From Escherichia phage vB_EcoD-Elw: 64,000 nt of DNA. The stretch lies in sequence record OR621298. One strand, 5' to 3'. This document shows, piece after piece, positions 1-11,310 of this stretch. The stretch's first letter is position 1; every line of letters begins with the position of its first letter. Under the pieces are notes generated by a model. The model worked only from the letters and a program-made list of their open reading frames with translations. It made no database searches and was not told the DNA's origin. The translations under genes were made by a program, and so were the position numbers.

Positions 1-109
1 GTCCACTGGCTGGCTAGATGAGAATGAGTCTCATTACCGCCCGGTACTTAGCAGGCTAATAGTCACGGCATGTTATCATTACACACCGTGACTATTTCAA
101 CTTTAATTA

Positions 110-844
110 TTACGCAACTTTTAATTTCTCAATATATTGTTGCGGGCTGCAACTATATTCTGCGCGTTCTTCCTCGGTCATACTTTCCCAACATAATTGC
201 AGGCGGTCGGCTAGGAACTGATAATCATTATCATCCTCAAGAGATTCATCAATAAAGGTTTCACCTATCAATGTAACCCCAATCGATAGAATATCGTTAA
301 CGGCTTGCGCGTCCAGCGTTTTAAATCCGTATGATGCCGCCGCTGATAGCACGCCTTTATGATCATCAATCATCGTGAAATCAGCGTTCGGATATAATTG
401 TTTAAATAACTCAAAGTAATGGCTTTTATAAATAGCGTCTTTGCTGTGGTATATCTCGCTAACTTTATCAGCCTCAAAATATTTGTGTAGTGTATCGCGG
501 GAAAATACACGGATATTACTATCCCCACGCCCTCGCAATCCTTGTTTGCGCAAATAATAATAATCCGACTTGCTCATTAGTCGAGCGGTGCAAATAATGT
601 TTAACGTGTTAACGTCATTCATACATTGGCGCATATATGTAACAAGGGGCAATAGTGTATCTTGCATTATTAAATCATGTTTGCAGGCTTCATTTTTATA
701 CTTATTTAAATCTAAATTGCCCTCGCTATCAAAGCAAGGCGCTACGCGATGGAAAGAATTAATGATAGTGCCGTCCAGATCCCAAATCATGACGCGGGAA
801 ATATGCGGGAAATTACGGGTAATATTCGTTTTAACTTGATTCAT
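110..844 (-). CDS. dmp: 5'-deoxyribonucleotidase-like HAD-superfamily phosphatase (T5 Dmp-like)
   Basis: 244-aa ORF; HAD motif I DLDGT near N-terminus; RBS GGAGAA upstream; sits ahead of A1-like gene as in T5 pre-early region. Confidence 0.6.
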   Translation of the reverse strand: MNQVKTNITRNFPHISRVMIWDLDGTIINSFHRVAPCFDSEGNLDLNKYKNEACKHDLIMQDTLLPLVTYMRQCMNDVNTLNIICTARLMSKSDYYYLRKQGLRGRGDSNIRVFSRDTLHKYFEADKVSEIYHSKDAIYKSHYFELFKQLYPNADFTMIDDHKGVLSAAASYGFKTLDAQAVNDILSIGVTLIGETFIDESLEDDNDYQFLADRLQLCWESMTEEERAEYSCSPQQYIEKLKVA

Positions 845-924
845 TTTGTTACGTTCTCCATTTAAGGGATTAGATTAATTCAGCATTACCCGCTATTTAT
901 AAGCGGGTAATAATAAATTAACTA

Positions 925-1317
925 TTAAAGACCATACGCCAACGCATCAGCAATAAAACTAATATCTTCACCAGATACACCGGAACGAATGCCCGCGCAG
1001 GTATATACCTTTGCGCTGGTCAATTGATCATCGAGGCAAGCGGGGCAAGGCGCGACAACTGCAAAGGCTAGGCCGGATTTTACGGCGTCGATGATAATCG
1101 TTTCTTGTTTCACAGTGTCAACATAAACACCTTTTGCTTTAATATGGCTAGTTAGTTTACCTTGCGTATAGGCAAAGGTAGTAACCTGCAAAGCGTCGTT
1201 AAAGTCCAATAGCTCATCAATAACGTGCCCCGCCTCGACGTGGTAACGTTCACCATTAGAATAAACCAGAACAATGGAAGATTGAGCGCGATCGAATGGG
1301 ATATTTTGCTTTTTCAT
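925..1317 (-). CDS. hypothetical protein (contains PCPAC motif)
   Basis: 130-aa ORF from track, same strand as neighbours. Confidence 0.45.
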   Translation of the reverse strand: MKKQNIPFDRAQSSIVLVYSNGERYHVEAGHVIDELLDFNDALQVTTFAYTQGKLTSHIKAKGVYVDTVKQETIIIDAVKSGLAFAVVAPCPACLDDQLTSAKVYTCAGIRSGVSGEDISFIADALAYGL

Positions 1318-1357
1318 ATTTATAAAACTCCAATTAATTTAATAAAGGGTATTTAAT

Positions 1358-1615
1358 TTACTTGATAATAATCTGCATTTGATACGGCGTTAATTCACCA
1401 TTTACGGGTAAATTATTATCGCTTAGCCACTCATAAAAAGCGTCATCATCGTCAAAAGGGATAATATCATTATCACGATAATCGACCGTAATAATCCCAT
1501 CCGTATTAGTTTTGGCGGCTAGGATAGGCCCGAAGCTGTAAACTTTATCGGATTCCATTTCATCCGGTGAAATAAATGCTTTTTCGTCCAGCGTTTTGGG
1601 TAATGTAACTTTCAT
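1358..1615 (-). CDS. hypothetical protein
   Basis: 85-aa ORF from track. Confidence 0.45.
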   Translation of the reverse strand: MKVTLPKTLDEKAFISPDEMESDKVYSFGPILAAKTNTDGIITVDYRDNDIIPFDDDDAFYEWLSDNNLPVNGELTPYQMQIIIK

Positions 1616-1671
1616 TCTAATTTAGCTCCTATAATAGCGGCTATATTTCAAGCCGCTAGGGTATTAATTAT

Positions 1672-3336
1672 TTACGCAAAAAATTTACCGTTCTTAAAAT
1701 CGATCAAAGTACGCTGACCATTTGCATAGGTAATTAAATGCGTTTGTGTCCAGCTTGACGCGCCAACGTTGTAACCCATGTCCAGACTACCAGCCACGCC
1801 AGCGGTATATACCCCGCCGTAAATGCTGGCGGTATGAGTGTGCCCCGTGTTTAATTTGCCCAATTTCTTAAACTGTTTCGGATTGCCACGGCTGCCGTTT
1901 ATGCCATTGTGACCGTGTACGCCGCATTCAATGCCTGCAATTTTAAATGATTGGTCAGTCGTTAGGAAAATGGCGTTAAACTCGCAACCTGCAACCTTAC
2001 GCAGCGCATAATCTAGCACGTTGAAAGTATCGTCTTTTTCTGCAATAGCTCCGTAAATCGCGGCATTCAGGCGGTGATATAGTTCCGCGTTCGCTGGGTC
2101 GTCTTTAATGTTAGCATTACGATCATCAAGCCAACGGGATAGCGCCAAATCGTGATTCGATTCAACAATGATTGTTTGCGAGAAATCGCGCTCCATTGAT
2201 TCCAGTACGCGCCCCGTATCGATGAGATCATCCAGAACTTTATCACGTCCGGCGGCGTATTGTTTTGCTAGGAATACACCCGAAGCGCGGTTGTGATGGT
2301 TGCGTGATGTAAAATCGTGAACGTCATGGATAAACTGATATTTTGGTTTAAGAATATCAAGCAAGCTATTTTCGCCAGCCCATGACGCAATGGCACAATC
2401 ATCATCAAGTTTTTCGGCGTGTATGTCGCCATATTGCAAGCCTAAAACATGCCCCGATGTTTCATAGCATCCGGCGGGAGTAGCGCAAACATTCAGATCA
2501 TAAAACACCCCGCTTTCGTCCATTGTTTCAAGCTGGCGAACAAAAAACTCACCGTCTTCGTCGAACTCAACAATCAGCGCACCGAAGTTATGCAGTGCTT
2601 CCGCTTTCTGTCCTGCTTTCTGCTGGATGTAATTTTTAAGCGTTGCCGTGCCAGTTGAATACATGCGGCGCACTACTTCACCTTTTAAAGCTGGCACGCT
2701 TTCGGCGGTGATTTTAGCGTGACCAATTGCCAGACCTTCCAGATTAAGCGCGGTTGCAGTTTCAGCGAATCCAGAAAGCGGATAATCTGCGGTGGGCAAA
2801 ACATTAATTTCAGCCATGAAAGCAAAACGGCGATTATTCAAAAACACGTTTTTGCTGCAAATATATTTATCGAACGCGGAATCATATTTTATTCCATCCG
2901 CGCCCTCGCCATTTTGGAATCCGTTTTTATTATAAATATACTTGCTAACCAGCAAATCAGCGCCGATATATTTAGCAAATTGCTCCAGTGAGGCTAAAAA
3001 GTTTTTATGCGGGAACGTATTATTCTGAATCGATGTAATAATAAAGCGTTTGCCTTGTTTTACTTCCCAGCTTTCCACCGTGCTAGAAACAATCCCCGCC
3101 GCTTCTGGGCGCTCATCGTTTTTAATGGCTTTTGCTACTTTCGCCGCTTTCGGTTTCGCTGGTTTATTTGCTTCCAGCCAATCACAAATAGCGGTGGAAT
3201 GTTTTGGAGTATCGTAAACCGCTTTTGATATATCGTCACAAACTTCCAATTTAGTGGCGCGCAGGCGTTTACCGTAGAAATTAAAGTCAGCGGCCATTTT
3301 CAGGATAACGGTTTGTTTTTCTGCGGAAATAATCAT
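1672..3336 (-). CDS. A1: A1-like pre-early protein (calcineurin-like metallophosphoesterase fold, probable nuclease)
   Basis: 554-aa ORF; metallophosphoesterase-type motifs (GDIH, GHTH); ATG with RBS; size and position match T5 A1. Confidence 0.7.
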   Translation of the reverse strand: MIISAEKQTVILKMAADFNFYGKRLRATKLEVCDDISKAVYDTPKHSTAICDWLEANKPAKPKAAKVAKAIKNDERPEAAGIVSSTVESWEVKQGKRFIITSIQNNTFPHKNFLASLEQFAKYIGADLLVSKYIYNKNGFQNGEGADGIKYDSAFDKYICSKNVFLNNRRFAFMAEINVLPTADYPLSGFAETATALNLEGLAIGHAKITAESVPALKGEVVRRMYSTGTATLKNYIQQKAGQKAEALHNFGALIVEFDEDGEFFVRQLETMDESGVFYDLNVCATPAGCYETSGHVLGLQYGDIHAEKLDDDCAIASWAGENSLLDILKPKYQFIHDVHDFTSRNHHNRASGVFLAKQYAAGRDKVLDDLIDTGRVLESMERDFSQTIIVESNHDLALSRWLDDRNANIKDDPANAELYHRLNAAIYGAIAEKDDTFNVLDYALRKVAGCEFNAIFLTTDQSFKIAGIECGVHGHNGINGSRGNPKQFKKLGKLNTGHTHTASIYGGVYTAGVAGSLDMGYNVGASSWTQTHLITYANGQRTLIDFKNGKFFA

Positions 3337-3433
3337 AGTAATAAAACTCCATTAAAGGGATTAAAAAACGTTTGTTATTGGCAAATATTGCCAAATATAA
3401 CGCCTATTATTTGAGGCGTTATAATTTGCAACA

Positions 3434-3679
3434 TTAATTTAAAGGCATAAGGCTAGAACTAACACCACAAACAACGGCGGCAATAAAACAAATCAGACCT
3501 AAACGCTTTGCTAACTTAGATTTACGTTTAAAATAATATGAATCTAAATCATTTTGAAAATAAGCGAATAGTAATGAGGCCGCCATAATAAATAAGCCTA
3601 GAATTAAGGATTCAGTAGGGTAAAAGATCATTTTAATAACTCCAGTCAAAGGGAAATTATAGTGGGGAATATTCCCCAC
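3434..3679 (-). CDS. small membrane protein
   Basis: 81-aa ORF with two hydrophobic segments. Confidence 0.4.
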   Translation of the reverse strand: MGNIPHYNFPLTGVIKMIFYPTESLILGLFIMAASLLFAYFQNDLDSYYFKRKSKLAKRLGLICFIAAVVCGVSSSLMPLN

Positions 3680-3688
3680 TAATTAAAT

Positions 3689-4105
3689 TTATTCGCCTGC
3701 GGCTTGTTTCACTTCATCGGCAACGCCTAACAGTTGCGCCACGGCGTCCAGCGTTTCCAGTTTTGCGCTTTCCAGTGATGCCAGATCGTCGGCGTCTTTG
3801 ATAATGCCGGAATCGATAGCGTGTTTTGCAATAACGCGCACATAATGCGCTTTGCGGATTGAGCTACCGCCGCCAACTTTGCGCGGCTTATCGCTTTTCT
3901 GATACGCTTTTGCGCTGGTCAATTTTGAGCGAACGGACACGGGGGAGGCCGCGCCAACTGCTTTTGCAATCTCTTTCAGGCCGTCGCTATTTGCGAAATC
4001 TAAACCGTTTTCATTAATTAACTGCTGGTACATGGTAACAGCTTTTTGGGTGTTTTCTTCATTCCATGCAAATTTTGCGGATTTTTCGGTTTTAACGTTA
4101 GCCAT
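3689..4105 (-). CDS. A2: A2-like pre-early protein
   Basis: 138-aa ORF directly downstream of A1-like gene; RBS AGGAG; assignment by size and synteny only. Confidence 0.5.
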   Translation of the reverse strand: MANVKTEKSAKFAWNEENTQKAVTMYQQLINENGLDFANSDGLKEIAKAVGAASPVSVRSKLTSAKAYQKSDKPRKVGGGSSIRKAHYVRVIAKHAIDSGIIKDADDLASLESAKLETLDAVAQLLGVADEVKQAAGE

Positions 4106-4204
4106 GATTGTAGCTCCTATTAGTTTAATTTAAGGGATAAGATTAACATAATGTTAATCGTTATATCCCCCGAACTACTAGGGGGATATAAAGTTAACAC
4201 TAAA

Positions 4205-4456
4205 TTATAAAACAGCTTCCCATTTTTCGTTACGCTGGACAACCTTTACAACGTCGCCGGATTTAACGCGAACGCTAAAAACGGTTTTGCCGTTGTTACT
4301 CCGTTCCGTTTCAGCGTATACCGCGTCGATTGTATCGAACGGCATAAGCGCCGCGCCTTTAATGCGTTCGGCCTTTCCGGTTAATTCATCCGTTTTAGTA
4401 ACGAAAGGAATAAAAACGGATTGACCAACTTTCGGCGCGGTAATAACGTTTTGCAT
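4205..4456 (-). CDS. hypothetical protein
   Basis: 83-aa ORF from track. Confidence 0.45.
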   Translation of the reverse strand: MQNVITAPKVGQSVFIPFVTKTDELTGKAERIKGAALMPFDTIDAVYAETERSNNGKTVFSVRVKSGDVVKVVQRNEKWEAVL

Positions 4457-4654
4457 AATATAAACTCCTAGTTATTTGGGGATTGTTCCGCATTACCTGC
4501 TAGAAAGTAACAGCAGGTAATAAGTAACAATCCGCTCGCCAATATAATCAATTTAAAGAACTCCACGCAGGCCGCTATATCCCAGTTAGGGGGCGGGGCA
4601 CATTATGGTAAGTGCCGACCGTCAAATTTTATCAAGTTATCGCTCTTATCGAAC

Positions 4655-4947
4655 TGGGTACATCTTAAAGCCTATCGGCTAGGGTGTCAAACAATTTTTT
4701 GCAGTTTTTTATGATTTTCTTTTAAGTCAATCATAATATTACGCCAGATCATTTCCAGACCTTGCTGGCGGCCTTTCTTGTACTGCTTAAATCGATATTT
4801 TACCGATCTTTGCGCTACTGTCAACAAATTTTTTGTTTTGCTGTCCAGTGCCTTGCTAGGTTTACCAGTGATCAATAAAGTTTGTTTCATATCGTCGATT
4901 CCTTATAATGTATAAGTTTACCGCCGATAGGCTTTAAGATGTACCCA
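4655..4947. repeat. 25-bp perfect inverted repeat pair (4655-4679 and 4923-4947) flanking a 67-aa ORF
   Basis: tgggtacatcttaaagcctatcggc at 4655-4679 and its exact reverse complement at 4923-4947. Confidence 0.85.
4687..4890 (-). CDS. small basic protein, inverted-repeat-flanked
   Basis: 67-aa K/R-rich ORF lying entirely between the 25-bp inverted repeats. Confidence 0.4.
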   Translation of the reverse strand: MKQTLLITGKPSKALDSKTKNLLTVAQRSVKYRFKQYKKGRQQGLEMIWRNIMIDLKENHKKLQKIV

Positions 4948-5177
4948 ATTTTTAAAGAGCGCGGCGGTAAACTTCCCGCCGTGTAGTTCGTCATTGCCGC
5001 CCTACGAGATAAATAATAGGGGATTCCCGAAAATGGCGCAACCTTATTTTTGTAAAGAAATGTAAAGACAAACGCCACCGGACACCATGCGGCGACCGGG
5101 GCGCGGCGCATTAAAATTAAAAGAAACGGGCGCGCGAATACCATAAAACCCAGCAGGTTGGCAAGTAATTTTTTCAT
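4887..5177 (-). CDS. hypothetical protein with hydrophobic N-terminus
   Basis: 96-aa ORF; N-terminal signal/TM-like segment. Confidence 0.35.
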   Translation of the reverse strand: MKKLLANLLGFMVFARPFLLILMRRAPVAAWCPVAFVFTFLYKNKVAPFSGIPYYLSRRAAMTNYTAGSLPPRSLKIGYILKPIGGKLIHYKESTI

Positions 5178-5348
5178 TTATATTTGCCTTGCCCTACTTG
5201 ACAAAACTTAAAAAGCTCGTGGTAGCGATAAACGAGGGTAGGCAATGCAATGGCATGGCTAAAACTTTCATCGCGTTCTAGGGCGTTTTAGGCGCATTCT
5301 AGCCTTGTTGATAACTTATCCCCAAAAGCAAAAATGAAATTTTCCTAG

Positions 5349-5746
5349 TTATCCACTTGACTTTTATTTTCCAGTGGATAACTACTTATTTTATGAAATA
5401 AATTAATTGACTTTTATTTGTTAGTATGCATCGGAAGAATAGCAGACTAATAATTACTAGAATAATAATCATGCTGGTGGATTGTAACGGCCTAAACTAT
5501 CAGCAGACTATTAATCACGAAAAATCTCGTTAGCTAACTAACTATTTCATGATGTATAATATACATATAAATTAATGAGAAATAATAATTATAATAAATA
5601 ATAACTACAGTAAATAATAACTATAAGAAACTATCGGCCTAAGTGAGAACCACTATCATTTAAGTTATACACAAAGTTATCCACAGCACTTTTTGACTTT
5701 ACACGATAGGCGGCGATATAAGGACTTTTACACAGACTTATCCACA
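5349..5746. promoter_or_regulatory. DnaA-box cluster (5349-5357, 5373-5381 inverted, 5677-5685, 5738-5746)
   Basis: TTATCCAC(A/T) matches; the first two form a 9-bp inverted pair with a 15-bp spacer. Confidence 0.55.
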
Positions 5747-5756
5747 GGTTATTCCA

Positions 5757-5772
5757 CTGTATAAATATACAG
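5757..5772. promoter_or_regulatory. LexA-box-like palindrome CTGTATAAATATACAG
   Basis: CTGT-N8-ACAG with AT-rich spacer, next to a perfect DnaA box. Confidence 0.4.
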
Positions 5773-6039
5773 GGTAAAAAGGTAGTGTTAACAACTGCAA
5801 TCAATTTTAAGCGGCTTAAATCGCATTCTAACGAGCTAAACGCTGCGGGGTAATATTAAAGTAAAGCCTTAATGCGTCACCCTGGTGGCTTCGCCGTGGT
5901 TTGCTCTTTATTGCACCGCTGCGCGGTTAGCATAAAAATAGGCGCTAGGCAAGGAAAATAAAAAGGTAAAATAATATTTGCCTATGCTAGAAATTTACCT
6001 TTATCATTCACTCACCGATTAACGAGGGAGGCCGAACAA

Positions 6040-7050
6040 ATGAGGCTTTATAAACCTGATAATGCCACCGTTTTAAAAGGTGCATTGCGCAACCTGCTGG
6101 ATGGTAGCAAGTCAACCAGCATTAAACATTTTATTAACAAGATTGAAACTATTCATCAAAACTTTTTTGATGATTATGACGCTTATGATATGGATAGTTT
6201 TCTACCCTTATATAGACAAGGGGCAACGCTAGTTTTATATAATCGGGATTGCCATATCTTTACAGGCAGGGGAGCGGGGCCGGATACCGATTTTATTGTT
6301 GCGCAGGGTAATAATATTGTTGCGTATCATAGCAATTCAGGCCGTCAATCATTTAATATAAATAGTTTTGAGCTTATTGGACTTGATCTGATAAATGGAC
6401 TTTCTAGCATTGAGGGATTTTTAGATGTTATCTGGAAGTATTTACCCGCTGGATGGCATAAGCCGGATAACGACGGATCTCAATATACCGGTATAATGGC
6501 TTTTGATGGCGACGGTAATTTTTTGTTACCACGGGAGCTATACCCATATATTTATGATGGGGATATAGAAAGCGCTGGTTTTTCTTTCTGGAAAGATGAA
6601 GATCAGATTATTGACAGCGTAGAAAACCATGCTGTAAATTCTAACACTCAAAGCGTTAACACTCAAACTACTGAAAACAAAGGAAAAAACACTATGACCA
6701 AGATTGCTAACATCGTTGCCGCTAATAAATCCGCCGTTGTAAATGCTGCAAAACTGGAAGCGGGTAAAATTGCACTGACTCAAATTACGAAAGTAGCGGC
6801 TAAAAAAGCACCGTTTATGATTAAAGGTTATATTGATACACCTATCGGTCGAGTAGTGATTGCCAACCTGCTGGGCGTAGCGGTTGACCAGTACGCCACA
6901 AGTAACCAAAAGGCGAAAGCGGTGGCAGGTGCAGCTATGGAAGCGGCTATGTTAGAAATGGTGCAAAGTTTTAACATCGCTGAGATGATTGATGAAATGG
7001 TAAAAGGTATTGATATTTCTACTTTTACCACTAGCACCGAAAGCGAGTAA
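6040..7050 (+). CDS. hypothetical protein
   Basis: 336-aa ORF; RBS GAGGGAGG upstream of ATG. Confidence 0.6.
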   Translation: MRLYKPDNATVLKGALRNLLDGSKSTSIKHFINKIETIHQNFFDDYDAYDMDSFLPLYRQGATLVLYNRDCHIFTGRGAGPDTDFIVAQGNNIVAYHSNSGRQSFNINSFELIGLDLINGLSSIEGFLDVIWKYLPAGWHKPDNDGSQYTGIMAFDGDGNFLLPRELYPYIYDGDIESAGFSFWKDEDQIIDSVENHAVNSNTQSVNTQTTENKGKNTMTKIANIVAANKSAVVNAAKLEAGKIALTQITKVAAKKAPFMIKGYIDTPIGRVVIANLLGVAVDQYATSNQKAKAVAGAAMEAAMLEMVQSFNIAEMIDEMVKGIDISTFTTSTESE

Positions 7051-7115
7051 TAATATTAAGCGGGGATTGTTACCCCGCTTTACTATTCCCTTGTTAACTA
7101 ATAGGAGGCTAATAA

Positions 7116-7610
7116 ATGGCTGATGAAAAATATGGCTTCTCACTGGGAGAAGTGAGCACGGCAAAACATGATATGATCATTTTGGTCGATTGTCATACTG
7201 GCTATTGCGGGGAAGGGAACACCGAGGAATATTTTGTTCCTGCTGGTACGGATCTGGACGCTTTCGCTCAGGAAATGGCTATTGATAATGCTTCTCGTTT
7301 TGGTAGCGATGGTTACGAAGACGAAGAAACTGGCGAATGGTATGAAAATGAAAACGTATATGCAAGCCTTTATCATTATCAATTAAGTAAATCCGGCACA
7401 TATGTAAACGGCGGCGATCCTATTAATTCCGTCATGAGATTAATTATTAAATATGGCGGCGTCGAGATAGTTGGTAACAAAGCGGTAATATACGCAAATC
7501 GATTAAAACAGCTTGTTTATATTCCTGATAGTACCCGATGGGATGAATATGCTGTTTTGCATGACGAATTGAAACGATGTTTCAATATTGAATCCTTACA
7601 AGTAGTCTAA
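7116..7610 (+). CDS. hypothetical protein
   Basis: 164-aa ORF; RBS AGGAGG upstream. Confidence 0.6.
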   Translation: MADEKYGFSLGEVSTAKHDMIILVDCHTGYCGEGNTEEYFVPAGTDLDAFAQEMAIDNASRFGSDGYEDEETGEWYENENVYASLYHYQLSKSGTYVNGGDPINSVMRLIIKYGGVEIVGNKAVIYANRLKQLVYIPDSTRWDEYAVLHDELKRCFNIESLQVV

Positions 7611-7623
7611 TGTAAAGTTTTGT

Positions 7624-7656
7624 AAAGGTCGCCTTTTATGGTGGCCTTTTTTGTTA
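7624..7656 (+). terminator. rho-independent terminator
   Basis: stem AAAGGTCGCC/GGTGGCCTTT (with G-U pairs) followed by TTTTTGTT. Confidence 0.5.
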
Positions 7657-7715
7657 TAATGCCTTTACACCGTTTGAGGACGGTTGAAAATTTTCCCAAA
7701 AATTGGAGGCTTAAA

Positions 7716-7946
7716 ATGGTTGCTTATTCTTCTGCTAGTCATCTGTTCACCGCTCAAGGCTGGGTATCTAACCGCGTTATTATTCACGAAATGGTGCAAG
7801 AATATGGCATTGCTAAAACATACAATACCATTCAGGCGCTTTATGATAATGATCAAATCGATCAGCAAACGGCGGGCTTTTTGCTGGATACCCTGAAAGC
7901 AGAACATTGCACCAAAAAACAAGCGGCTAAAATTGTTTTAATGTAA
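7716..7946 (+). CDS. hypothetical protein
   Basis: ORF 7638..7946 trimmed to the ATG preceded by RBS GGAGG. Confidence 0.5.
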   Translation: MVAYSSASHLFTAQGWVSNRVIIHEMVQEYGIAKTYNTIQALYDNDQIDQQTAGFLLDTLKAEHCTKKQAAKIVLM

Positions 7947-7993
7947 TTAATAACGGGGCGTTATTTTCGCCCCACTAACTAGGGGGAATGAAA

Positions 7994-8143
7994 ATGGTTA
8001 TTTTTCGAGCTATTTTAGCGGGTATCTTGGGCGCTATTTTATCGTTGTTTGCAATAGCTTTCGGCGTTCACGCGGTTATTATTGGCGCGGGTATCGCTGC
8101 ATTTTCTTATCTGCTGGGCTGCATGACTAGTAAAGGAGAATAA
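7994..8143 (+). CDS. small hydrophobic membrane peptide (49 aa)
   Basis: Not in ORF track (below 60 aa); RBS GGGGGAA; hydrophobic MVIFRAILAGILGAILSLFAIAFG...; ends 3 nt before next gene. Confidence 0.35.
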   Translation: MVIFRAILAGILGAILSLFAIAFGVHAVIIGAGIAAFSYLLGCMTSKGE

Positions 8144-8145
8144 AA

Positions 8146-8358
8146 ATGATCCGCAATGTTTCCCTTGCCCGTTCGAAAGGCTTTAAGCTGGTGGATGTTA
8201 ACACGTTCGAGCGTGAAGATTGTAAAATCGAATATGTAGCACGTAATAAGAATGCCTTTCGTGTTACAGAAAAGAAATTTGACAAGCGCGGCAACGTGAT
8301 CGCTGAAACGGTTAAACACTTTGCCACCTTTTACGCTGCGTTTCGTGGGGTGTTATAA
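8146..8358 (+). CDS. hypothetical protein
   Basis: 70-aa ORF; RBS AAAGGAG upstream. Confidence 0.55.
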   Translation: MIRNVSLARSKGFKLVDVNTFEREDCKIEYVARNKNAFRVTEKKFDKRGNVIAETVKHFATFYAAFRGVL

Positions 8359-8359
8359 A

Positions 8360-8704
8360 ATGGTTATTTATGAGGGCAACCGCTTTGTTGCTAATTGCCG
8401 CCCTGCATTGCTAGCAAATTACTTAAATCAGCTTTCACCAGCTTATAAGGGCGTTATTAATATTTATGAAGGCAAGGCGCATTATAAAATCAATGCGGTC
8501 GTTGCCCGTGAACTAGCGTTTCAATTTTTGACCTTTGCATCTTGTGACGTTCAGGTCATGGGTGAAGCGTTAATTGCAGAAAATGAAGATGATTTTATTA
8601 ATATTTTTCGCAAGATATGCACCGAGCGCCTGATAATGAAAGGCGCTTATATTCAATCCACTGCGGATAGTATTGAAACAGCGTTTCGAAAGGTGGCGCA
8701 ATGA
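8360..8704 (+). CDS. hypothetical protein
   Basis: ORF 8321..8704 trimmed to first ATG just after upstream stop. Confidence 0.5.
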   Translation: MVIYEGNRFVANCRPALLANYLNQLSPAYKGVINIYEGKAHYKINAVVARELAFQFLTFASCDVQVMGEALIAENEDDFINIFRKICTERLIMKGAYIQSTADSIETAFRKVAQ

Positions 8705-8904
8705 GCAATAAAATTGTTGTAACCAAAATCAGTACAATGGTTGATGTTTTTTACGTGCCCGATACGCCGGAAAACCGGCAAGCGGTCGAGCGTGGCGAGT
8801 ATGATAAAGTGATTTATGATCACGATGGTTATTATCAGCATTTGGTCGATTCCTATGGGGAAGAGGAAAAGATCACGCATCAATTACCGGAGGATGGTTT
8901 ATGA
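8701..8904 (+). CDS. hypothetical protein
   Basis: 67-aa ORF overlapping the upstream stop by 4 nt. Confidence 0.5.
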   Translation: MSNKIVVTKISTMVDVFYVPDTPENRQAVERGEYDKVIYDHDGYYQHLVDSYGEEEKITHQLPEDGL

Positions 8905-9014
8905 AACGATGGTTTAATCACTGGTATAAGCGGTTTTTAGTACGCCGTCGCAAATCTAGACATCAAGATGAGTGGCGGGAGTGGGCAAAGCGTAACGGTT
9001 GCCCGCTACTCTGA
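8901..9014 (+). CDS. small basic protein (37 aa)
   Basis: ATGA start/stop overlap with upstream gene; not in ORF track. Confidence 0.3.
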   Translation: MKRWFNHWYKRFLVRRRKSRHQDEWREWAKRNGCPLL

Positions 9015-9155
9015 GAACGACGGGGATTAGCTCCCCGTTTTTCCATGCCTCCAGTTAAATACCCCCTTGTTTTAGTATCCCCACCAAAATTAAACGCGTT
9101 AGAATGCGATCTAGGACGTTTTAGCGGTATATTAGAATTATTCACTACATAGGAA

Positions 9156-9175
9156 TACTGTATATTTATACAGTA
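9156..9175. promoter_or_regulatory. near-consensus LexA box TACTGTATATTTATACAGTA
   Basis: 19 of 20 match to TACTGTATATATATACAGTA; immediately followed by a DnaA box. Confidence 0.5.
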
Positions 9176-9183
9176 GGATAAGC

Positions 9184-9265
9184 TGTGGATAAGTCTGTTA
9201 ATAACGCCTCAAAATGGCTAGGATTCTGTCAAGTCAAATCGTGCTGTTAATAAGTCTGTGGATAA
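9184..9265. promoter_or_regulatory. DnaA boxes (9184-9192 and 9257-9265, both TGTGGATAA)
   Basis: Two perfect reverse-complement matches to TTATCCACA within direct repeats of aagtctgttaataa. Confidence 0.55.
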
Positions 9266-9289
9266 CTTAAATAATAGTGTTTCTCACTT

Positions 9290-9440
9290 CCATTCTTAAA
9301 TGCAAATCATTATCATTCGCATTTCACTTTCTAAATGAGAATCATTTCACTTCTTGAATAGTTCTCATTTCACTTTTTAAATGCGAATTATTATCATTCT
9401 CATTTCGCTTTTTAAATGATTCTTATTATCATTCGCATTC
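9290..9440. repeat. degenerate tandem repeats (~25-30 bp unit, catttcacttt...aaatgagaat) with internal inverted symmetry
   Basis: 4-5 reiterations of TCATTTCACTTTYTRAATG-like units. Confidence 0.6.
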
Positions 9441-9444
9441 AGGC

Positions 9445-9466
9445 GCGCAGGGCAATTGCCCTGCGC
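9445..9466. repeat. 22-bp perfect palindrome followed by a T-run
   Basis: GCGCAGGGCAATTGCCCTGCGC then TTTT; terminator-like or protein-binding site. Confidence 0.7.
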
Positions 9467-9470
9467 TTTT

Positions 9471-10070
9471 GTGCAAATCCGACATTGCTCCACGGGTGTT
9501 ACGTGCGGGCGTGTATGTGCGAATCCGACAATTTTTGGTAGTGTGCAAATCCGACCCGAAAAATTTTTATAGTGTGCAAATCCGACAATGAATTTTCCCA
9601 AAAACTCCAGCAATCCGATGCTGCGCATCAATCCTGTGGAATTAGCTAGAATATGTGCAAATCCGACATGGGTTTATTTGTGCGAATCCGACAAGATTTT
9701 TGTGACTTTGATTGGAGGGTGTGTGATTGTATGGGTTTGAGGAGAAGATGAGAGAGCGAGAAAAATTTGAGGGAACTGTGAGAGGGGCGCAGGATTGGTG
9801 CGGAGCACCTGATTTGCGGGGATTTTGGGGAAGAGTTGAGATAATTTGGGAAGATTTGGGATAGGTGCAGATAAAGTAAAATTTTATTAGCAAAACGAGG
9901 CAAAATAGCTTGACAAGTGAAAATTTCTGTGGCTCTAAAAACTCAGGCAATCATGGGCCTTCGGCCCGAAATAATGCTGCTATTTTCAGGAGATTATATG
10001 TTCCTAAAAACTTAGGCGTTTGTGCAAATCCGATCATAAATTTCTAGAAATGCAGTGTGCAAATCCGACA
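9471..10070 (+). repeat. array of 8 direct 14-bp iteron-like repeats GTGC(A/G)AATCCGACA
   Basis: Copies at 9471, 9517, 9543, 9574, 9655, 9680, 10022, 10057, all same orientation, irregular spacing; non-coding. Confidence 0.8.
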
Positions 10071-10578
10071 GTAATTTCTGGAAATGTGTTTTCAAAAAAT
10101 GTCTTCTAGAAATAACCGCCCTCCCTATAACCGCCTATTGCTGGAGTTTCTAGGAACAATGAAAACCGCCTGAGTTGGCTAGAGAAACAGATTTAAAGTT
10201 TAATGTAAACTCTAGAGTTAGTGCTCAACTATTCCTAGAAACTCAGGAGTCTAGAAGAAAGTGTTGTGCCATCCTAGCAGATGAGCAGCAACAGGTGTAT
10301 CATCTTGAACACAGATATTGCCTTTAAATATTCTCTTGTAAATAAAATTAATAGTTTCCCCAATCTCGTGAGTCTGCTGCTCTAGGCGTTCAAGATCTGT
10401 ATGCTAATCCCGTGAGAACTGCTGCAGAATACATCCTATCGCCGGAGGCGTCGGTGTACTCTTCGAGTTGGGATAGCAATAATCTTGTTGCCTAGAGCTA
10501 AAAACAGAAGTTGTTTTTAATCTATGAGATTATTATAACATGTTTGGGTATGAGAATGCAAGAAATTTTTGCTACTAT

Positions 10579-11310
10579 TTATTCCTTTCGTCTGTATTTG
10601 AGAACGATGCCCTTCGAAACCATGAAGAGGAAAGTTGCTAGATAGGAATGTGGGCTTTTAAGCGCATCATAATCTACTGTCCCGAAAGAACCTTCGCCGA
10701 AAACTTCAGAGTTCTCAAATGTAGGAAGTAAACGTGCCAATCCTACAGCTCCTATAATCTTAAAGAATTGATCCCAGTCATTTAACATTGCTTTATGTGC
10801 AGACTGTAAGATTAATGGCATCTCTAGGTTCTTTTCGAGACATAGATGAACCTGCGCAATCGTAGAGGCAATCCCTAGCAACACTTCATCTTTTGTATAA
10901 GGGAATCCAGTATCTTTTCTTTGGAGTCTAGGAAGATGATCATATTCACAACGTTTAGGTGGGATGAACTTTTCCTCGGGATATAATTCTAATGCAACTC
11001 TAACGTTTCCTTCTTTAAATACTGGAAGTTCCTGATCTGCAAAGACATGATATGAATCTGCCTTGAACCCTACAATCTTATCACCAACAGAATTGATGAT
11101 CTTTCTCATTGCAATATAAGAAGGGGATAGAGTTACGAATTTTTCTTCTTTATTATATTTAACAATTCCAGCTTCTGTATAAGCTGCGGGATGAAACTCA
11201 GAACAGAATGCTACTGCATGAGCTTCATCAGGAGTTAGTTCAGAAACACATTTGCCGTCAGCATTCTTAGCCAGCTTAATAATAGTCTTTAAATTCTCAC
11301 TAATACTCAT
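10579..11310 (-). CDS. hypothetical protein
   Basis: 243-aa ORF from track. Confidence 0.55.
   Translation of the reverse strand: MSISENLKTIIKLAKNADGKCVSELTPDEAHAVAFCSEFHPAAYTEAGIVKYNKEEKFVTLSPSYIAMRKIINSVGDKIVGFKADSYHVFADQELPVFKEGNVRVALELYPEEKFIPPKRCEYDHLPRLQRKDTGFPYTKDEVLLGIASTIAQVHLCLEKNLEMPLILQSAHKAMLNDWDQFFKIIGAVGLARLLPTFENSEVFGEGSFGTVDYDALKSPHSYLATFLFMVSKGIVLKYRRKE

What the first reader, a model, noticed from the sequence alone, without database searches (positions are those of the whole stretch)
5733..9196. Inverted ~42-bp repeats carrying a DnaA box plus a LexA-like SOS box bracket the only plus-strand block of the pre-early region
5733-5775 and the reverse complement of 9151-9196 are 39 of 42 identical. 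Each holds a perfect DnaA box (TTATCCACA) next to a CTGT-N8-ACAG palindrome; the right copy TACTGTATATTTATACAGTA is one base off the E. coli LexA-box consensus. Between them lie genes 6040-9014, all on the plus strand, while flanking genes are on the minus strand. Host DnaA or LexA binding at the boundaries of a first-transferred segment would be a neat regulatory or DNA-transfer-arrest device, or mark an inversion-prone segment.
Basis: seen in the sequence. Interest (0 to 1): 0.6.

Follow-up and report, generated by a model that had tools for sequence, protein, structure and literature searches.

The report
Host LexA/DnaA sites in T5 repeats
The two inverted repeats are the already described DnaA-box repeats linked to the injection stop of T5-like phages. 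Each also carries a near-perfect binding site for the host SOS repressor LexA, which is kept across the whole phage family, is not mentioned in any paper I could read, and gives a testable lead on how these phages control their first-injected DNA.

Summary
The window is the left end of a T5-like phage genome. It is the known IRC-spacer-IRD / IRD'-spacer-IRC' repeat pair of T5. Its paired DnaA boxes and a DnaA-based injection-stop model are already published (Davison 2020), so that part is not new.

The CTGT-N8-ACAG palindromes add something. The right one matches the E. coli LexA consensus at 19 of 20 positions and scores above the recA and sulA operators. Both are kept in 27-28 close relatives. 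Near-consensus boxes next to DnaA boxes also recur upstream of A2 in Klebsiella, Pectobacterium, Proteus, Aeromonas and Vibrio T5-like phages (A1 only 33-74% identical), where the surrounding non-coding DNA shares little else.

Sequence variation fits a dimeric protein site, not a hairpin. No paper I could read links LexA to T5.

The block between the arms is inverted in the Klebsiella and Pectobacterium lineages. It has one orientation in all 36 close-relative loci, and no recombinase is present, so this is not a programmed switch.

Most likely the arms are docking modules for host LexA and DnaA on first-step-transfer DNA. The function is inferred, not shown.

The parts
5641..5787 (.). Left arm, equivalent to IRC-spacer-IRD of T5. 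From outer to inner side: GTGAGAA motif, DnaA-box pair, 40-nt spacer containing TTGACT (TTGACA in the other arm and in most relatives), DnaA-box pair, LexA-like box.
   Evidence: the repeat finder I1. blastn matches T5 6098-6296. Alignment of 28 relatives. Literature.
9143..9289 (.). Right arm, equivalent to IRD'-spacer-IRC' of T5. It lies inside the region annotated in T5 as the injection stop signal and mirrors the left arm.
   Evidence: I1. 92% identical to T5 9343-9542. The T5 iss feature spans 9140-10149. Alignment of 27 relatives.
5755..5774 (.). Left LexA-like operator CACTGTATAAATATACAGGG (core CTGT-N8-ACAG at 5757-5772).
   Evidence: Scores 21.9 bits on my PWM. Median 22.8 bits in 28 relatives, with 4 decayed to 17-18 bits.
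9156..9175 (.). Right LexA-like operator TACTGTATATTTATACAGTA, matching the E. coli consensus at 19 of 20 positions.
   Evidence: Scores 25.5 bits against 26.8 for the consensus, 20.9 for recA and 20.5 for sulA. 22.7-25.5 bits in all 27 relatives.
5665..5685 (+). Left outer DnaA-box pair, TTATACACA-aag-TTATCCACA.
5726..5746 (+). Left inner DnaA-box pair, TTTTACACA-gac-TTATCCACA, 10 bp from the CTGT of the LexA-like box.
   Evidence: The two pairs are 61 bp apart start to start (D12).
9184..9204 (-). Right inner DnaA-box pair, TTATTAACA-gac-TTATCCACA when read on the - strand.
9245..9265 (-). Right outer DnaA-box pair, TTATCCACA-gac-TTATTAACA when read on the - strand.
   Evidence: 61-bp spacing to the inner pair (D9).
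5809..5840 (.). Inner extension of the left arm, with a perfect GTTAGAATGCGAT at 5820-5832(-).
   Evidence: I4.. Related CTTAGAATSGC motifs lie beside the LexA-like boxes in distant genera.
9090..9121 (.). Inner extension of the right arm, with a perfect GTTAGAATGCGAT at 9098-9110(+).
   Evidence: I4..
6040..9014 (+). The bracketed pre-early gene block: homologues of T5 genes 011 to 017, plus a 164-aa ORF (7116-7610) that T5 lacks.
   Evidence: ORFs. T5 annotation. PHROG/Pfam families of unknown function. Reported as dispensable in T5.
9020..9043 (+). Terminator-like hairpin plus T-run ending the + strand block, just inside the right arm.
   Evidence: Sequence read directly. The homologous T5 site is annotated as a putative rho-independent terminator at 9275-9296. 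The consensus scan did not list it.
5764..5791 (-). Candidate outward-facing sigma-70 promoter, TTAACA-16-TATATT. Its -10 lies inside the left LexA-like box. Unverified.
   Evidence: Consensus scan, 10 of 12 matches. The -35 is present in most but not all relatives and is absent in T5.
9137..9164 (-). Candidate inward-facing sigma-70 promoter, TATACA-16-AATAAT. Its -35 is the right half of the right LexA-like box. Weak and unverified.
   Evidence: 9 of 12 matches. The same layout recurs in T5, Klebsiella, Proteus, Aeromonas and Vibrio phage Noelle.
5978..6007 (+). Position homologous to the experimentally characterised T5 pre-early promoter P11 upstream of gene 011. It lies about 200 bp from the left LexA-like box and does not overlap it.
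   Evidence: TTGCCT-18-TATCAT. T5 promoter feature at 6411-6489. Primer-extension evidence for P11 in PMC7472727 and bioRxiv 2026.04.02.716235.

Best explanation
The arms are the conserved IRC-spacer-IRD / IRD'-spacer-IRC' repeats of the T5 terminal repeat. [quoted passage not shown] Each arm has two pairs of DnaA boxes on its outer side and one high-affinity LexA operator on its inner side.

Shown here:
- The sequences are near-consensus LexA and DnaA sites.
- The box-containing blocks are the best-conserved parts between the two arms; the spacer and inner flank are much less so.
- The module is kept across Demerecviridae genera.

Inferred:
- In an uninduced host, LexA dimers occupy both operators within seconds of first-step transfer. 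I put LexA binding in vivo at about 0.8.
- LexA then acts as it does elsewhere, as an operator-bound repressor or roadblock. It would silence weak promoters embedded in the arms, whose -10 or -35 hexamers lie inside the palindrome. That would keep the borders of the 011-017 cassette, and the DNA just before the injection stop, transcriptionally quiet.
- The LexA pool would collapse either because the host was already SOS-induced or because A1-driven host DNA breakdown activates RecA. I put this transcriptional role at about 0.45.
- DnaA bound alongside would co-regulate or anchor the DNA, as Davison proposed.

The inverted arrangement is a duplicated regulatory boundary. It has allowed at least one evolutionary inversion of the cassette. 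It is not a switch.
For: Identity with the T5 element:
- Searches place the arms at the T5 repeats.
- Searches give the literature description, including the pairs of DnaA boxes spaced by 3 bp and the constant spacing between pairs.

LexA site quality:
- The right box matches the consensus at 19 of 20 positions.
- The boxes score 25.5 and 21.9 bits, against 12.2-24.0 for E. coli operators. The next best site in the 64 kb scores 16.2, and the highest site in any shuffle scored 17.4.
- Most operators used for the PWM match the list printed in PMC3009722.

Conservation:
- All 27 right-arm boxes score 22.7-25.5 bits. Left-arm boxes have a median of 22.8 bits.
- Between the two arms, identity is 0.83-0.88 over the DnaA pairs, linker and LexA box, but 0.54 in the spacer and 0.41 in the inner flank.
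- Klebsiella, Pectobacterium, Proteus, Aeromonas and two Vibrio phage lineages each keep at least one box of 19.7-25.5 bits beside DnaA boxes upstream of A2, and most keep two or three. The second-best box is 17.7 bits in Aeromonas and 17.1 in Noelle. The best box is far above the mean highest score in shuffles (9-12.5) in every locus and above every shuffle in all but one.
- Seven environmental contigs that encode A1 show the same pairing.

Protein site rather than hairpin:
- T4 and G5 are invariant, the centre is variable, there are no compensatory changes, and the outer pairs are often non-complementary.
- The hairpins are weak, -3.9 and -4.9 kcal/mol.

Promoter overlap:
- Candidate promoters overlap the boxes. 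One in Proteus phage 1 matches 11 of 12 positions, with its -35 in a DnaA box and its -10 in the LexA-like box.
Against: - No binding or expression data exist for these sites.
- The arm promoters are only consensus matches (9-10 of 12) in AT-rich DNA, and they are not uniformly conserved. T5 itself lacks the TTAACA -35.
- The experimentally known promoter P11 lies about 200 bp from the left box.
- The right arm has no gene on its outer side for more than 1.3 kb.
- A T5 mutant deleted from hegG to 017 is viable with small plaques. That deletion should remove the left arm, so at least one arm is non-essential.
- To my knowledge T5 grows on recA hosts, so LexA cleavage cannot be required.
- All hosts of this phage family are Gammaproteobacteria and share the same LexA motif. 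A test for co-variation between host LexA motif and phage motif was therefore impossible.
- The whole arm is well conserved among close relatives. Only the comparison between arms and the distant genera single out the box.
Confidence: 0.5

Rival explanations
1. A nucleoprotein stop. LexA and DnaA bound at the right arm (with or without the left arm) physically form, or form part of, the injection stop signal. They would act as an anchor, roadblock or knot that halts DNA entry until A1 and A2 act. This extends Davison's DnaA-membrane model by adding LexA.
For: - The right arm lies inside the region annotated as iss in T5, a few hundred bp to the left of the calculated shear point.
- The stop needs no new protein synthesis: FST DNA is sheared off in the presence of chloramphenicol. 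That fits host proteins already in the cell.
- The right-arm box is under tighter constraint than the left one.
- The module sits near the inner end of the terminal repeat in My1 as well.
Against: - Proteins that bind DNA already inside the cell would be expected to favour entry, not block it.
- There is no evidence that LexA is membrane-associated.
- In distant genera the spacing and orientation of DnaA boxes relative to the LexA-like box vary, which argues against a precise architecture.
- None of this has been tested experimentally (quotes BF23 authors saying that functional studies are lacking).
Confidence: 0.2
2. The palindrome is the binding site of a phage-encoded protein, for example the DNA-binding dimer A2 or the A1-A2 complex. 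Its match to the LexA consensus would then be coincidence, or mimicry that shuts LexA out.
For: - A1 and A2 are the pre-early genes conserved in every lineage that carries the module.
- A2 is annotated as a DNA-binding protein. Its model is all-helical, with weak resemblance to helix-turn-helix proteins.
- A second conserved motif, GTTAGAATGCGAT-like, lies beside the box and has no known binder.
Against: - The motif stays CTGTAT-N4-ATACAG while A1 and A2 fall to 33-42% identity. A host factor with fixed specificity explains this more simply.
- The site equals the host LexA consensus at 19 of 20 positions. LexA would bind it whatever else does.
- The A2 model has no beta wing and no significant match to LexA or any solved structure.
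- No LexA-like domain was found in ten pre-early proteins.
Confidence: 0.12
3. The arms are mainly recombination or structural elements. They would be substrates for inversion of the cassette, or for cruciform or hairpin formation, and the palindrome would matter as DNA structure rather than as a protein site.
For: - The cassette is inverted in Klebsiella phages and Pectobacterium My1 relative to T5-type phages (annotation).
- The centre of the palindrome flips between AAAT and ATTT without intermediates, as a hairpin-loop inversion would.
Against: - All 36 close-relative loci share one orientation, and megablast hits are collinear.
- The arms are only 76% identical, with a longest perfect run of 17 bp.
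- No recombinase is present.
- The hairpins are weak.
- There are no compensatory stem substitutions.
Confidence: 0.06
4. No function of its own. The LexA-like palindrome is a passenger in a repeat that is conserved for other reasons, or an ordinary AT-rich promoter element.
For: - The whole arm is 86-97% conserved among close relatives, so conservation there is not specific to the box.
- TATAAA and TATATT inside the palindrome resemble -10 elements.
Against: Distant genera keep the box while the surrounding non-coding sequence changes. The best box in each distant locus scores 19.7-25.5 bits, far above the mean highest score in shuffles and above every shuffle in all but one locus. The information profile peaks on CTGT/ACAG rather than on a -10 hexamer.
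Confidence: 0.07

Closest known systems
IRC-spacer-IRD / IRD'-spacer-IRC' inverted repeats of the phage T5 terminal repeat, with eight paired DnaA boxes (Heusterspreute 1987; Wang 2005; Davison 2015; Davison 2020, bioRxiv 10.1101/866236)
   Same: This is the same element. It has the same position flanking genes 011-017 and is 76-92% identical to the T5 arms. It has the same pairs of DnaA boxes separated by 3 bp and the same constant distance between pairs. The right arm lies in the annotated injection-stop region.
   Different: Nothing structural differs. What is added here is that the palindrome at the inner end of each arm (probably 'palD' of the T5 papers) is a near-consensus LexA operator conserved across the family. 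Davison 2020 does not mention LexA or SOS. The 1987, 2005 and 2015 papers could not be read.
E. coli SOS boxes (LexA operators), e.g. umuDC, sulA, recA, recN and sbmC; consensus TACTGTATATATATACAGTA
   Same: The same 20-bp palindrome. The scores equal or exceed those of strong chromosomal operators. The pattern of conserved and variable positions is the same.
   Different: Chromosomal boxes overlap the promoter of a defined gene. Here no verified promoter overlaps the boxes. The sites lie on DNA of an obligately lytic phage that enters the cell first, and they sit next to DnaA boxes.
LexA operators on mobile elements: coliphage 186 tum, CTXphi PrstA, Bacillus phage GIL01 and colicin operons (from my own knowledge, reviewed by Fornelos et al. 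2016)
   Same: A mobile element borrows the host SOS repressor by carrying its operator.
   Different: Those cases couple lysogenic induction or toxin release to DNA damage. T5-like phages are virulent, have no lysogeny decision, and destroy the host chromosome themselves within minutes.
The uvrB regulatory region of E. coli, with a LexA box at P2 and a DnaA box at P3 (from my own knowledge)
   Same: A LexA operator and a DnaA box lie side by side in one control region.
   Different: uvrB has single boxes in front of one gene, not two pairs of DnaA boxes plus a LexA box duplicated as an inverted repeat. This was not tested here.
Site-specific invertible segments: Mu G, P1 C, Salmonella hin and fimS
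   Same: Inverted repeats bracket a gene block, and both orientations of the block exist among related genomes.
   Different: There is no invertase gene. Only one orientation occurs among close relatives. The arms are long, diverged and full of host-factor sites.

Membership tests
T5 IRC-spacer-IRD / IRD'-spacer-IRC' repeats | Located in the long terminal repeat of a T5-like phage, flanking the 011-017 gene block downstream of dmp-A1-A2 | tested here: met
   the gene order is the same as in T5 NC_005859, and 454 T5-like records match 5500-9500.
T5 IRC-spacer-IRD / IRD'-spacer-IRC' repeats | Arms homologous to the T5 arms (about 131 bp, running from the palindrome to the GTGAGAA motif) | tested here: met
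   the left arm is 76% identical to T5 6098-6296 and the right arm 92% identical to T5 9343-9542. Alignments.
T5 IRC-spacer-IRD / IRD'-spacer-IRC' repeats | Two pairs of DnaA/DnaA* boxes per arm, 3 bp within a pair, with a constant distance between pairs (52-bp spacer in Davison's terms) | tested here: met
   The pairs are 61 bp apart start to start in both arms (D9 and D12), which equals a 9-bp box plus 52 bp.
T5 IRC-spacer-IRD / IRD'-spacer-IRC' repeats | Acts as, or contributes to, the injection stop signal | not testable with these tools
   This is only a hypothesis in the literature.
Gammaproteobacterial LexA operator (SOS box) | A CTGT-N8-ACAG palindrome with an AT-rich centre, close to TACTGTATATATATACAGTA | tested here: met
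   the right box matches 19 of 20 and the left 16 of 20, both with intact CTGT and ACAG.
Gammaproteobacterial LexA operator (SOS box) | A score within the range of experimentally verified operators | tested here: met
   25.5 and 21.9 bits against 12.2-24.0 for 29 E. coli operators. I recalled the operator list from memory; most entries match the list in PMC3009722.
Gammaproteobacterial LexA operator (SOS box) | A substitution pattern that follows LexA contacts (invariant CTGT/ACAG, free centre) rather than base pairing | tested here: met
   on 26 distinct boxes from loci that encode A1. Caveat: the boxes were collected with the PWM (17 bits or more), which biases the profile towards LexA.
Gammaproteobacterial LexA operator (SOS box) | Overlaps or abuts the promoter it controls | tested here: inconclusive
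   Only consensus-level promoter candidates overlap the boxes. The verified P11 is about 200 bp away.
Gammaproteobacterial LexA operator (SOS box) | LexA binds, and expression or another output changes with SOS induction | not testable with these tools
   Needs EMSA or footprinting, ChIP, and lexA/recA host genetics.
DnaA box (R-type, TTWTNCACA) | Match to the 9-mer consensus, clustered | tested here: met
   six consensus boxes lie within the two 147-nt arms, out of 14 in 64 kb (7.7 expected). There are also two one-off boxes, TTATTAACA.
DnaA box (R-type, TTWTNCACA) | DnaA binding | not testable with these tools
   No data.
Programmed invertible segment (Gin/Hin/Cin or Fim type) | A site-specific recombinase encoded in or next to the segment | tested here: not met
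   none of ten pre-early proteins matches a recombinase family. The T5 annotation lists none.
Programmed invertible segment (Gin/Hin/Cin or Fim type) | Both orientations found among close relatives or within a population | tested here: not met
   36 of 36 Tequintavirus/Epseptimavirus-type loci share one orientation. Only the Klebsiella phage (L039-L042) and Pectobacterium My1 (L043) lineages are inverted. Heterogeneity within a population is not testable here.
Replication origin (DnaA-box cluster plus unwinding element) | An AT-rich unwinding element next to the boxes, and origin activity | not tested
   Davison notes that the mapped T5 origins lie near the genome centre and that replication genes are not yet in the cell. 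I searched for no unwinding element.

The most novel reading that the evidence does not exclude
LexA, together with DnaA, bound at the right arm is the long-sought host component of the T5 injection stop, and its removal is the timer for second-step transfer. A1-driven degradation of the host chromosome would activate RecA. LexA would cleave itself. The near-consensus operator, among the last to be vacated, would be freed, and the rest of the genome would enter. DNA entry would thus be coupled to confirmed destruction of the host genome.
Probability: 0.07. Interest if true: 0.85.

Novelty: new member of a known kind. Interest (0 to 1): 0.55.

Why it matters
How T5 stops after injecting 8% of its genome, and how pre-early expression is organised, have been open questions for more than 50 years. 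The only sequence-based proposal so far involves DnaA boxes and is untested.

Each repeat also carries a LexA operator stronger than those of recA or sulA. It is kept from Escherichia phages to Vibrio and Aeromonas phages. This adds a second, easily manipulated host factor to the problem.

LexA is well suited to experiment. lexA(Def), lexA(Ind-) and recA hosts exist, purified LexA is simple to assay, and T5 can now be edited.

A positive result would show that a strictly lytic phage reads the host SOS state, or its own destruction of the host chromosome, through DNA that enters first. A negative result would still remove one candidate from the models of the injection stop.

The DnaA boxes and the repeats themselves are already known.

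Tried and rejected
- **Host/motif co-variation test.** I looked for A1-bearing phages of hosts with a different LexA motif. Rhizobium phage RHph_Y2_11 carries A1 among late and replication genes and has no T5-type first-transfer region. All true Demerecviridae hosts found were Gammaproteobacteria, so the test could not be run.
- **Known RNA families.** Rfam with E-values on 4400-10700 returned only chance-level hits.
- **Hairpin or cruciform reading.** Rejected because the predicted energies are weak and there are no compensatory changes.
- **A phage LexA mimic.** Pfam and PHROGs searches on ten pre-early proteins found no LexA-like or recombinase domain. An AlphaFold model of A2 (pLDDT 83) is all-helical, and its best PDB matches have E about 1.
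- **Programmed inversion.** Rejected.
- **Earlier literature.** Davison 2015 is not held in the library. Wang 2005 and Heusterspreute 1987 were not available. Whether they noted the LexA similarity is unknown. Full-text searches combining LexA or SOS terms with T5-family terms found nothing relevant.
- **The TTGACA conserved in the spacer of both arms.** No usable -10 follows it at 16-18 bp, so I did not call it a promoter.

Full report
**What the window is.**
- Megablast of 5500-9500 finds 454 phage records, almost all T5-like Escherichia and Salmonella phages.
- The ORF order (dmp, A1, A2, small genes, a + strand block, then a long non-coding stretch) matches the left terminal repeat of T5 NC_005859.
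- The window therefore starts at about the left end of a T5-like genome. The finding lies in the first-step-transfer (FST) DNA.

**Checking the observation.**
- The sequences are as described.
- The repeat is far larger than reported: 5641-5787 against 9143-9289 (147 nt, 111 identical), continued by 5809-5840 against 9090-9121. A perfect GTTAGAATGCGAT lies at 5820-5832(-) and 9098-9110(+).
- Each arm holds two pairs of DnaA-type boxes with 3 bp inside a pair and 61 bp between pair starts. The left arm has four consensus boxes. The right arm has two consensus boxes and two one-off boxes (TTATTAACA).
- CTGT-N8-ACAG occurs three times in 64 kb (0.55 expected). The two AT-rich copies are the ones reported.
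- The 20-mer at 9156-9175 is one mismatch from TACTGTATATATATACAGTA, and nothing else in the window is within three mismatches.
- ORFs 6040-9014 are all on the + strand and the neighbours are on the - strand.

**Already known.**
- The arms are the IRC-spacer-IRD and IRD'-spacer-IRC' repeats of T5. The right arm is 92% identical to T5 9343-9542 and the left arm 76% identical to T5 6098-6296.
- Davison's preprint (bioRxiv 10.1101/866236) makes these points:
  - It describes the repeats in 25 T5-like phages.
  - It describes eight DnaA or DnaA* boxes in pairs 3 bp apart, and a constant 52-bp spacer.
  - It proposes that membrane-bound DnaA holding these boxes is the injection stop.
  - It credits the first DnaA box to a 1987 paper and the repeat nomenclature to Wang 2005.
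- T5's annotated injection stop signal (9140-10149) contains the right arm.
- Later papers repeat the idea and note that it is untested.
- The repeats, the DnaA boxes and the transfer-arrest idea are therefore not new.

**The LexA-like box.**
- Davison's text contains neither 'LexA' nor 'SOS'. Three full-text searches combining LexA or SOS terms with T5-family terms found nothing relevant.
- I built a position weight matrix (PWM) from 29 E. coli operators recalled from memory. Most of them match the list printed in PMC3009722.
  - The right box scores 25.5 bits and the left 21.9.
  - For comparison: consensus 26.8, umuDC 24.0, recA 20.9, sulA 20.5.
  - The next best site in the window scores 16.2, and the highest site in any shuffle scored 17.4.
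- I collected LTR loci through the A2 protein. Across about 28 distinct phages the palindrome sits at the same place in both arms.
  - Right-arm boxes score 22.7-25.5 bits in all 27 phages.
  - Left-arm boxes have a median of 22.8 bits, with four decayed to 17-18.
- Close relatives conserve the whole arm, so I made two sharper comparisons.
  - First comparison, between the two arms of the same genome. Identity is 0.83-0.88 over the DnaA pairs, the linker and the LexA box. It falls to 0.54 in the spacer and 0.41 in the inner flank.
  - Second comparison, distant Demerecviridae found through A1. Roth50, My1, Proteus phage 1, AhSzq-1, D342 and Noelle have A1 33-74% identical to the window's. Each carries at least one box of 19.7-25.5 bits next to DnaA boxes upstream of A2, and most carry two or three. 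The second-best box is 17.7 bits in AhSzq-1 and 17.1 in Noelle. The surrounding non-coding DNA has changed.
  - In those loci the highest score in shuffles averages 9-12.5 bits. Long inverted repeats spanning the boxes are detectable in four of the six.
- A pattern scan of IMG/VR for a DnaA box followed by CTGTAT-N4-ATACAG found seven more environmental contigs that encode A1 and carry the pair.

**Protein site or DNA structure?**
- Among 26 distinct boxes, T4 and G5 never change. C3, T6, A7 and T8 rarely change, and the central four bases vary.
- Deviations are one-sided, with no compensatory pairs. The outermost pairs are complementary in fewer than half of the boxes.
- Caveat: the boxes were gathered with the PWM.
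- Predicted single-strand hairpins are weak, -3.9 and -4.9 kcal/mol.
- This fits recognition by a dimer with CTGTAT half-sites, which is the LexA half-site.

**Could a phage protein be the binder?**
- Ten pre-early proteins show no LexA-like, helix-turn-helix or recombinase Pfam family.
- An AlphaFold model of A2 (pLDDT 83) is all-helical and has no significant PDB match.
- A2 binding cannot be excluded. However, a motif that stays fixed while A1 and A2 diverge to 33-42% identity is explained more simply by a host factor of constant specificity.

**Inversion.**
- In all 36 Tequintavirus/Epseptimavirus-type loci the 011 homologue is on the strand opposite to A2.
- In the Klebsiella phages (L039-L042) and Pectobacterium My1 (L043) the homologues of 011 and of the 164-aa ORF are on the same strand as A2, and 011 lies next to the distal arm.
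- In both groups each arm keeps its DnaA boxes outside and its LexA box inside.
- The cassette has therefore been inverted between the arms at least once in the family's history.
- Three things argue against a programmed switch:
  - no recombinase is present;
  - there is only one orientation among close relatives;
  - the longest perfect run between the arms is 17 bp.

**Function.**
- The experimentally characterised pre-early promoters are P_H22, P_D/E20 and P11. P11 is about 200 bp from the left box.
- Consensus scans place weak promoter-like sites on the boxes:
  - TTAACA-16-TATATT facing outward at 5791-5764, with its -10 inside the left box;
  - TATACA-16-AATAAT facing inward at 9164-9137, with its -35 inside the right box.
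- The layout with TATACA as the -35 recurs in T5, Klebsiella, Proteus, Aeromonas and Noelle. Proteus phage 1 has an 11-of-12 site with its -35 in a DnaA box and its -10 in the LexA-like box.
- These are leads, not evidence.
- A T5 mutant deleted from hegG to 017 is viable with small plaques. That deletion should remove the left arm, so the pair is not essential.
- Davison notes that some T5-like phages lack the left-arm repeats.
- Together with the tighter conservation of the right box, this makes the arm on the injection-stop side the more important one.

**Verdict.**
- The DnaA and transfer-arrest reading is already published.
- I found no earlier report of the LexA reading. It is well supported as a prediction of LexA binding (about 0.8). 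Its role is open.
- I favour LexA-gated silencing of arm-embedded promoters and cassette borders, released when LexA is depleted (about 0.45). Next comes a contribution to the injection stop (about 0.2).
- Rivals are a phage-protein site (0.12), a structural or recombination element (0.06) and a passenger sequence (0.07).

Noticed in passing
window 9296-9436; also 20, 214-238, 4147, 7278-7302, 8818: There are 16 Fur-box-like 19-mers (GATAATGATAATCATTATC with up to 5 mismatches) against 4.1 expected, and 13 of them fall in the first 9.5 kb. Five lie in the DRE repeats just right of the right arm. Two overlapping matches with 3 mismatches lie inside dmp. The T5 receptor FhuA is Fur-regulated (my own knowledge), so this could be a third host-factor motif in the injection-stop region.
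   Followed up: partly
L046 (Vibrio phage D342) about 10290-10345 and 10955-10990; L047 (Vibrio phage Noelle) about 4025-4060; L044 (Proteus phage 1) 9930-9965: In Vibrio T5-like phages the LexA-like box is followed within about 15-55 bp by sigma-54-type -24/-12 elements (TTGGCACG-N4-TTGC). Proteus phage 1 has TTGACA at the same place. All are followed by a shared ACGCATACGC-like stretch.
   Followed up: no
L043 8012 and 8216; L044 9911; L046 10939; L047 4007: There is a third class of module without adjacent DnaA boxes. It consists of a CTTAGAATGCG...TTTTAG motif directly abutting a full or half-degenerate LexA-like palindrome, then a TTGAC(T/A) or sigma-54-like element. The same GTTAGAATGCGAT motif flanks both arms in the window. 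Its binder is unknown.
   Followed up: partly
window 5761-5768 and 9162-9169, and the same columns in L001-L043: The four central bases of the palindrome are either AAAT or ATTT (reverse complements of each other) in different phages and arms. The one-step intermediates ATAT and AATT never appear. This suggests the centre flips in a single event, as in a hairpin-loop inversion, rather than by point mutation.
   Followed up: partly
window 5346-5384: Another inverted pair of DnaA-like boxes, TAGTTATCCACTTGA / TCCAGTGGATAACTA, with 9 nt between the two 15-nt arms. It lies in the non-coding stretch left of the left arm (I17).
   Followed up: no
window 9468-9700 and 10019-10077: Eight copies of TGTGC(A/G)AATCCGA(C/T), the DRD repeats of T5, lie right of the right arm (D1). 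No known binding protein.
   Followed up: no
window 9700-9870: A stretch of about 170 bp is G/A-rich and almost free of C on the + strand (GC skew up to 0.5). It lies near where T5 annotates a major single-strand interruption.
   Followed up: no
window 1-10000 versus L002/L003 and L019: The terminal repeat is mosaic. A2 is 100% identical to IMG/VR contig 2974619995 (L002/L003). The right arm, however, is 100% identical to a different contig (L019) and only 98% identical to L002/L003. The left arm is best matched by yet other phages.
   Followed up: no
window 7116-7610: The 164-aa ORF inside the bracketed block has no counterpart in T5 itself and is present in only about a third of the related loci. 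This agrees with Davison's remark that the cassette between the arms is poorly conserved while the arms are not.
   Followed up: no
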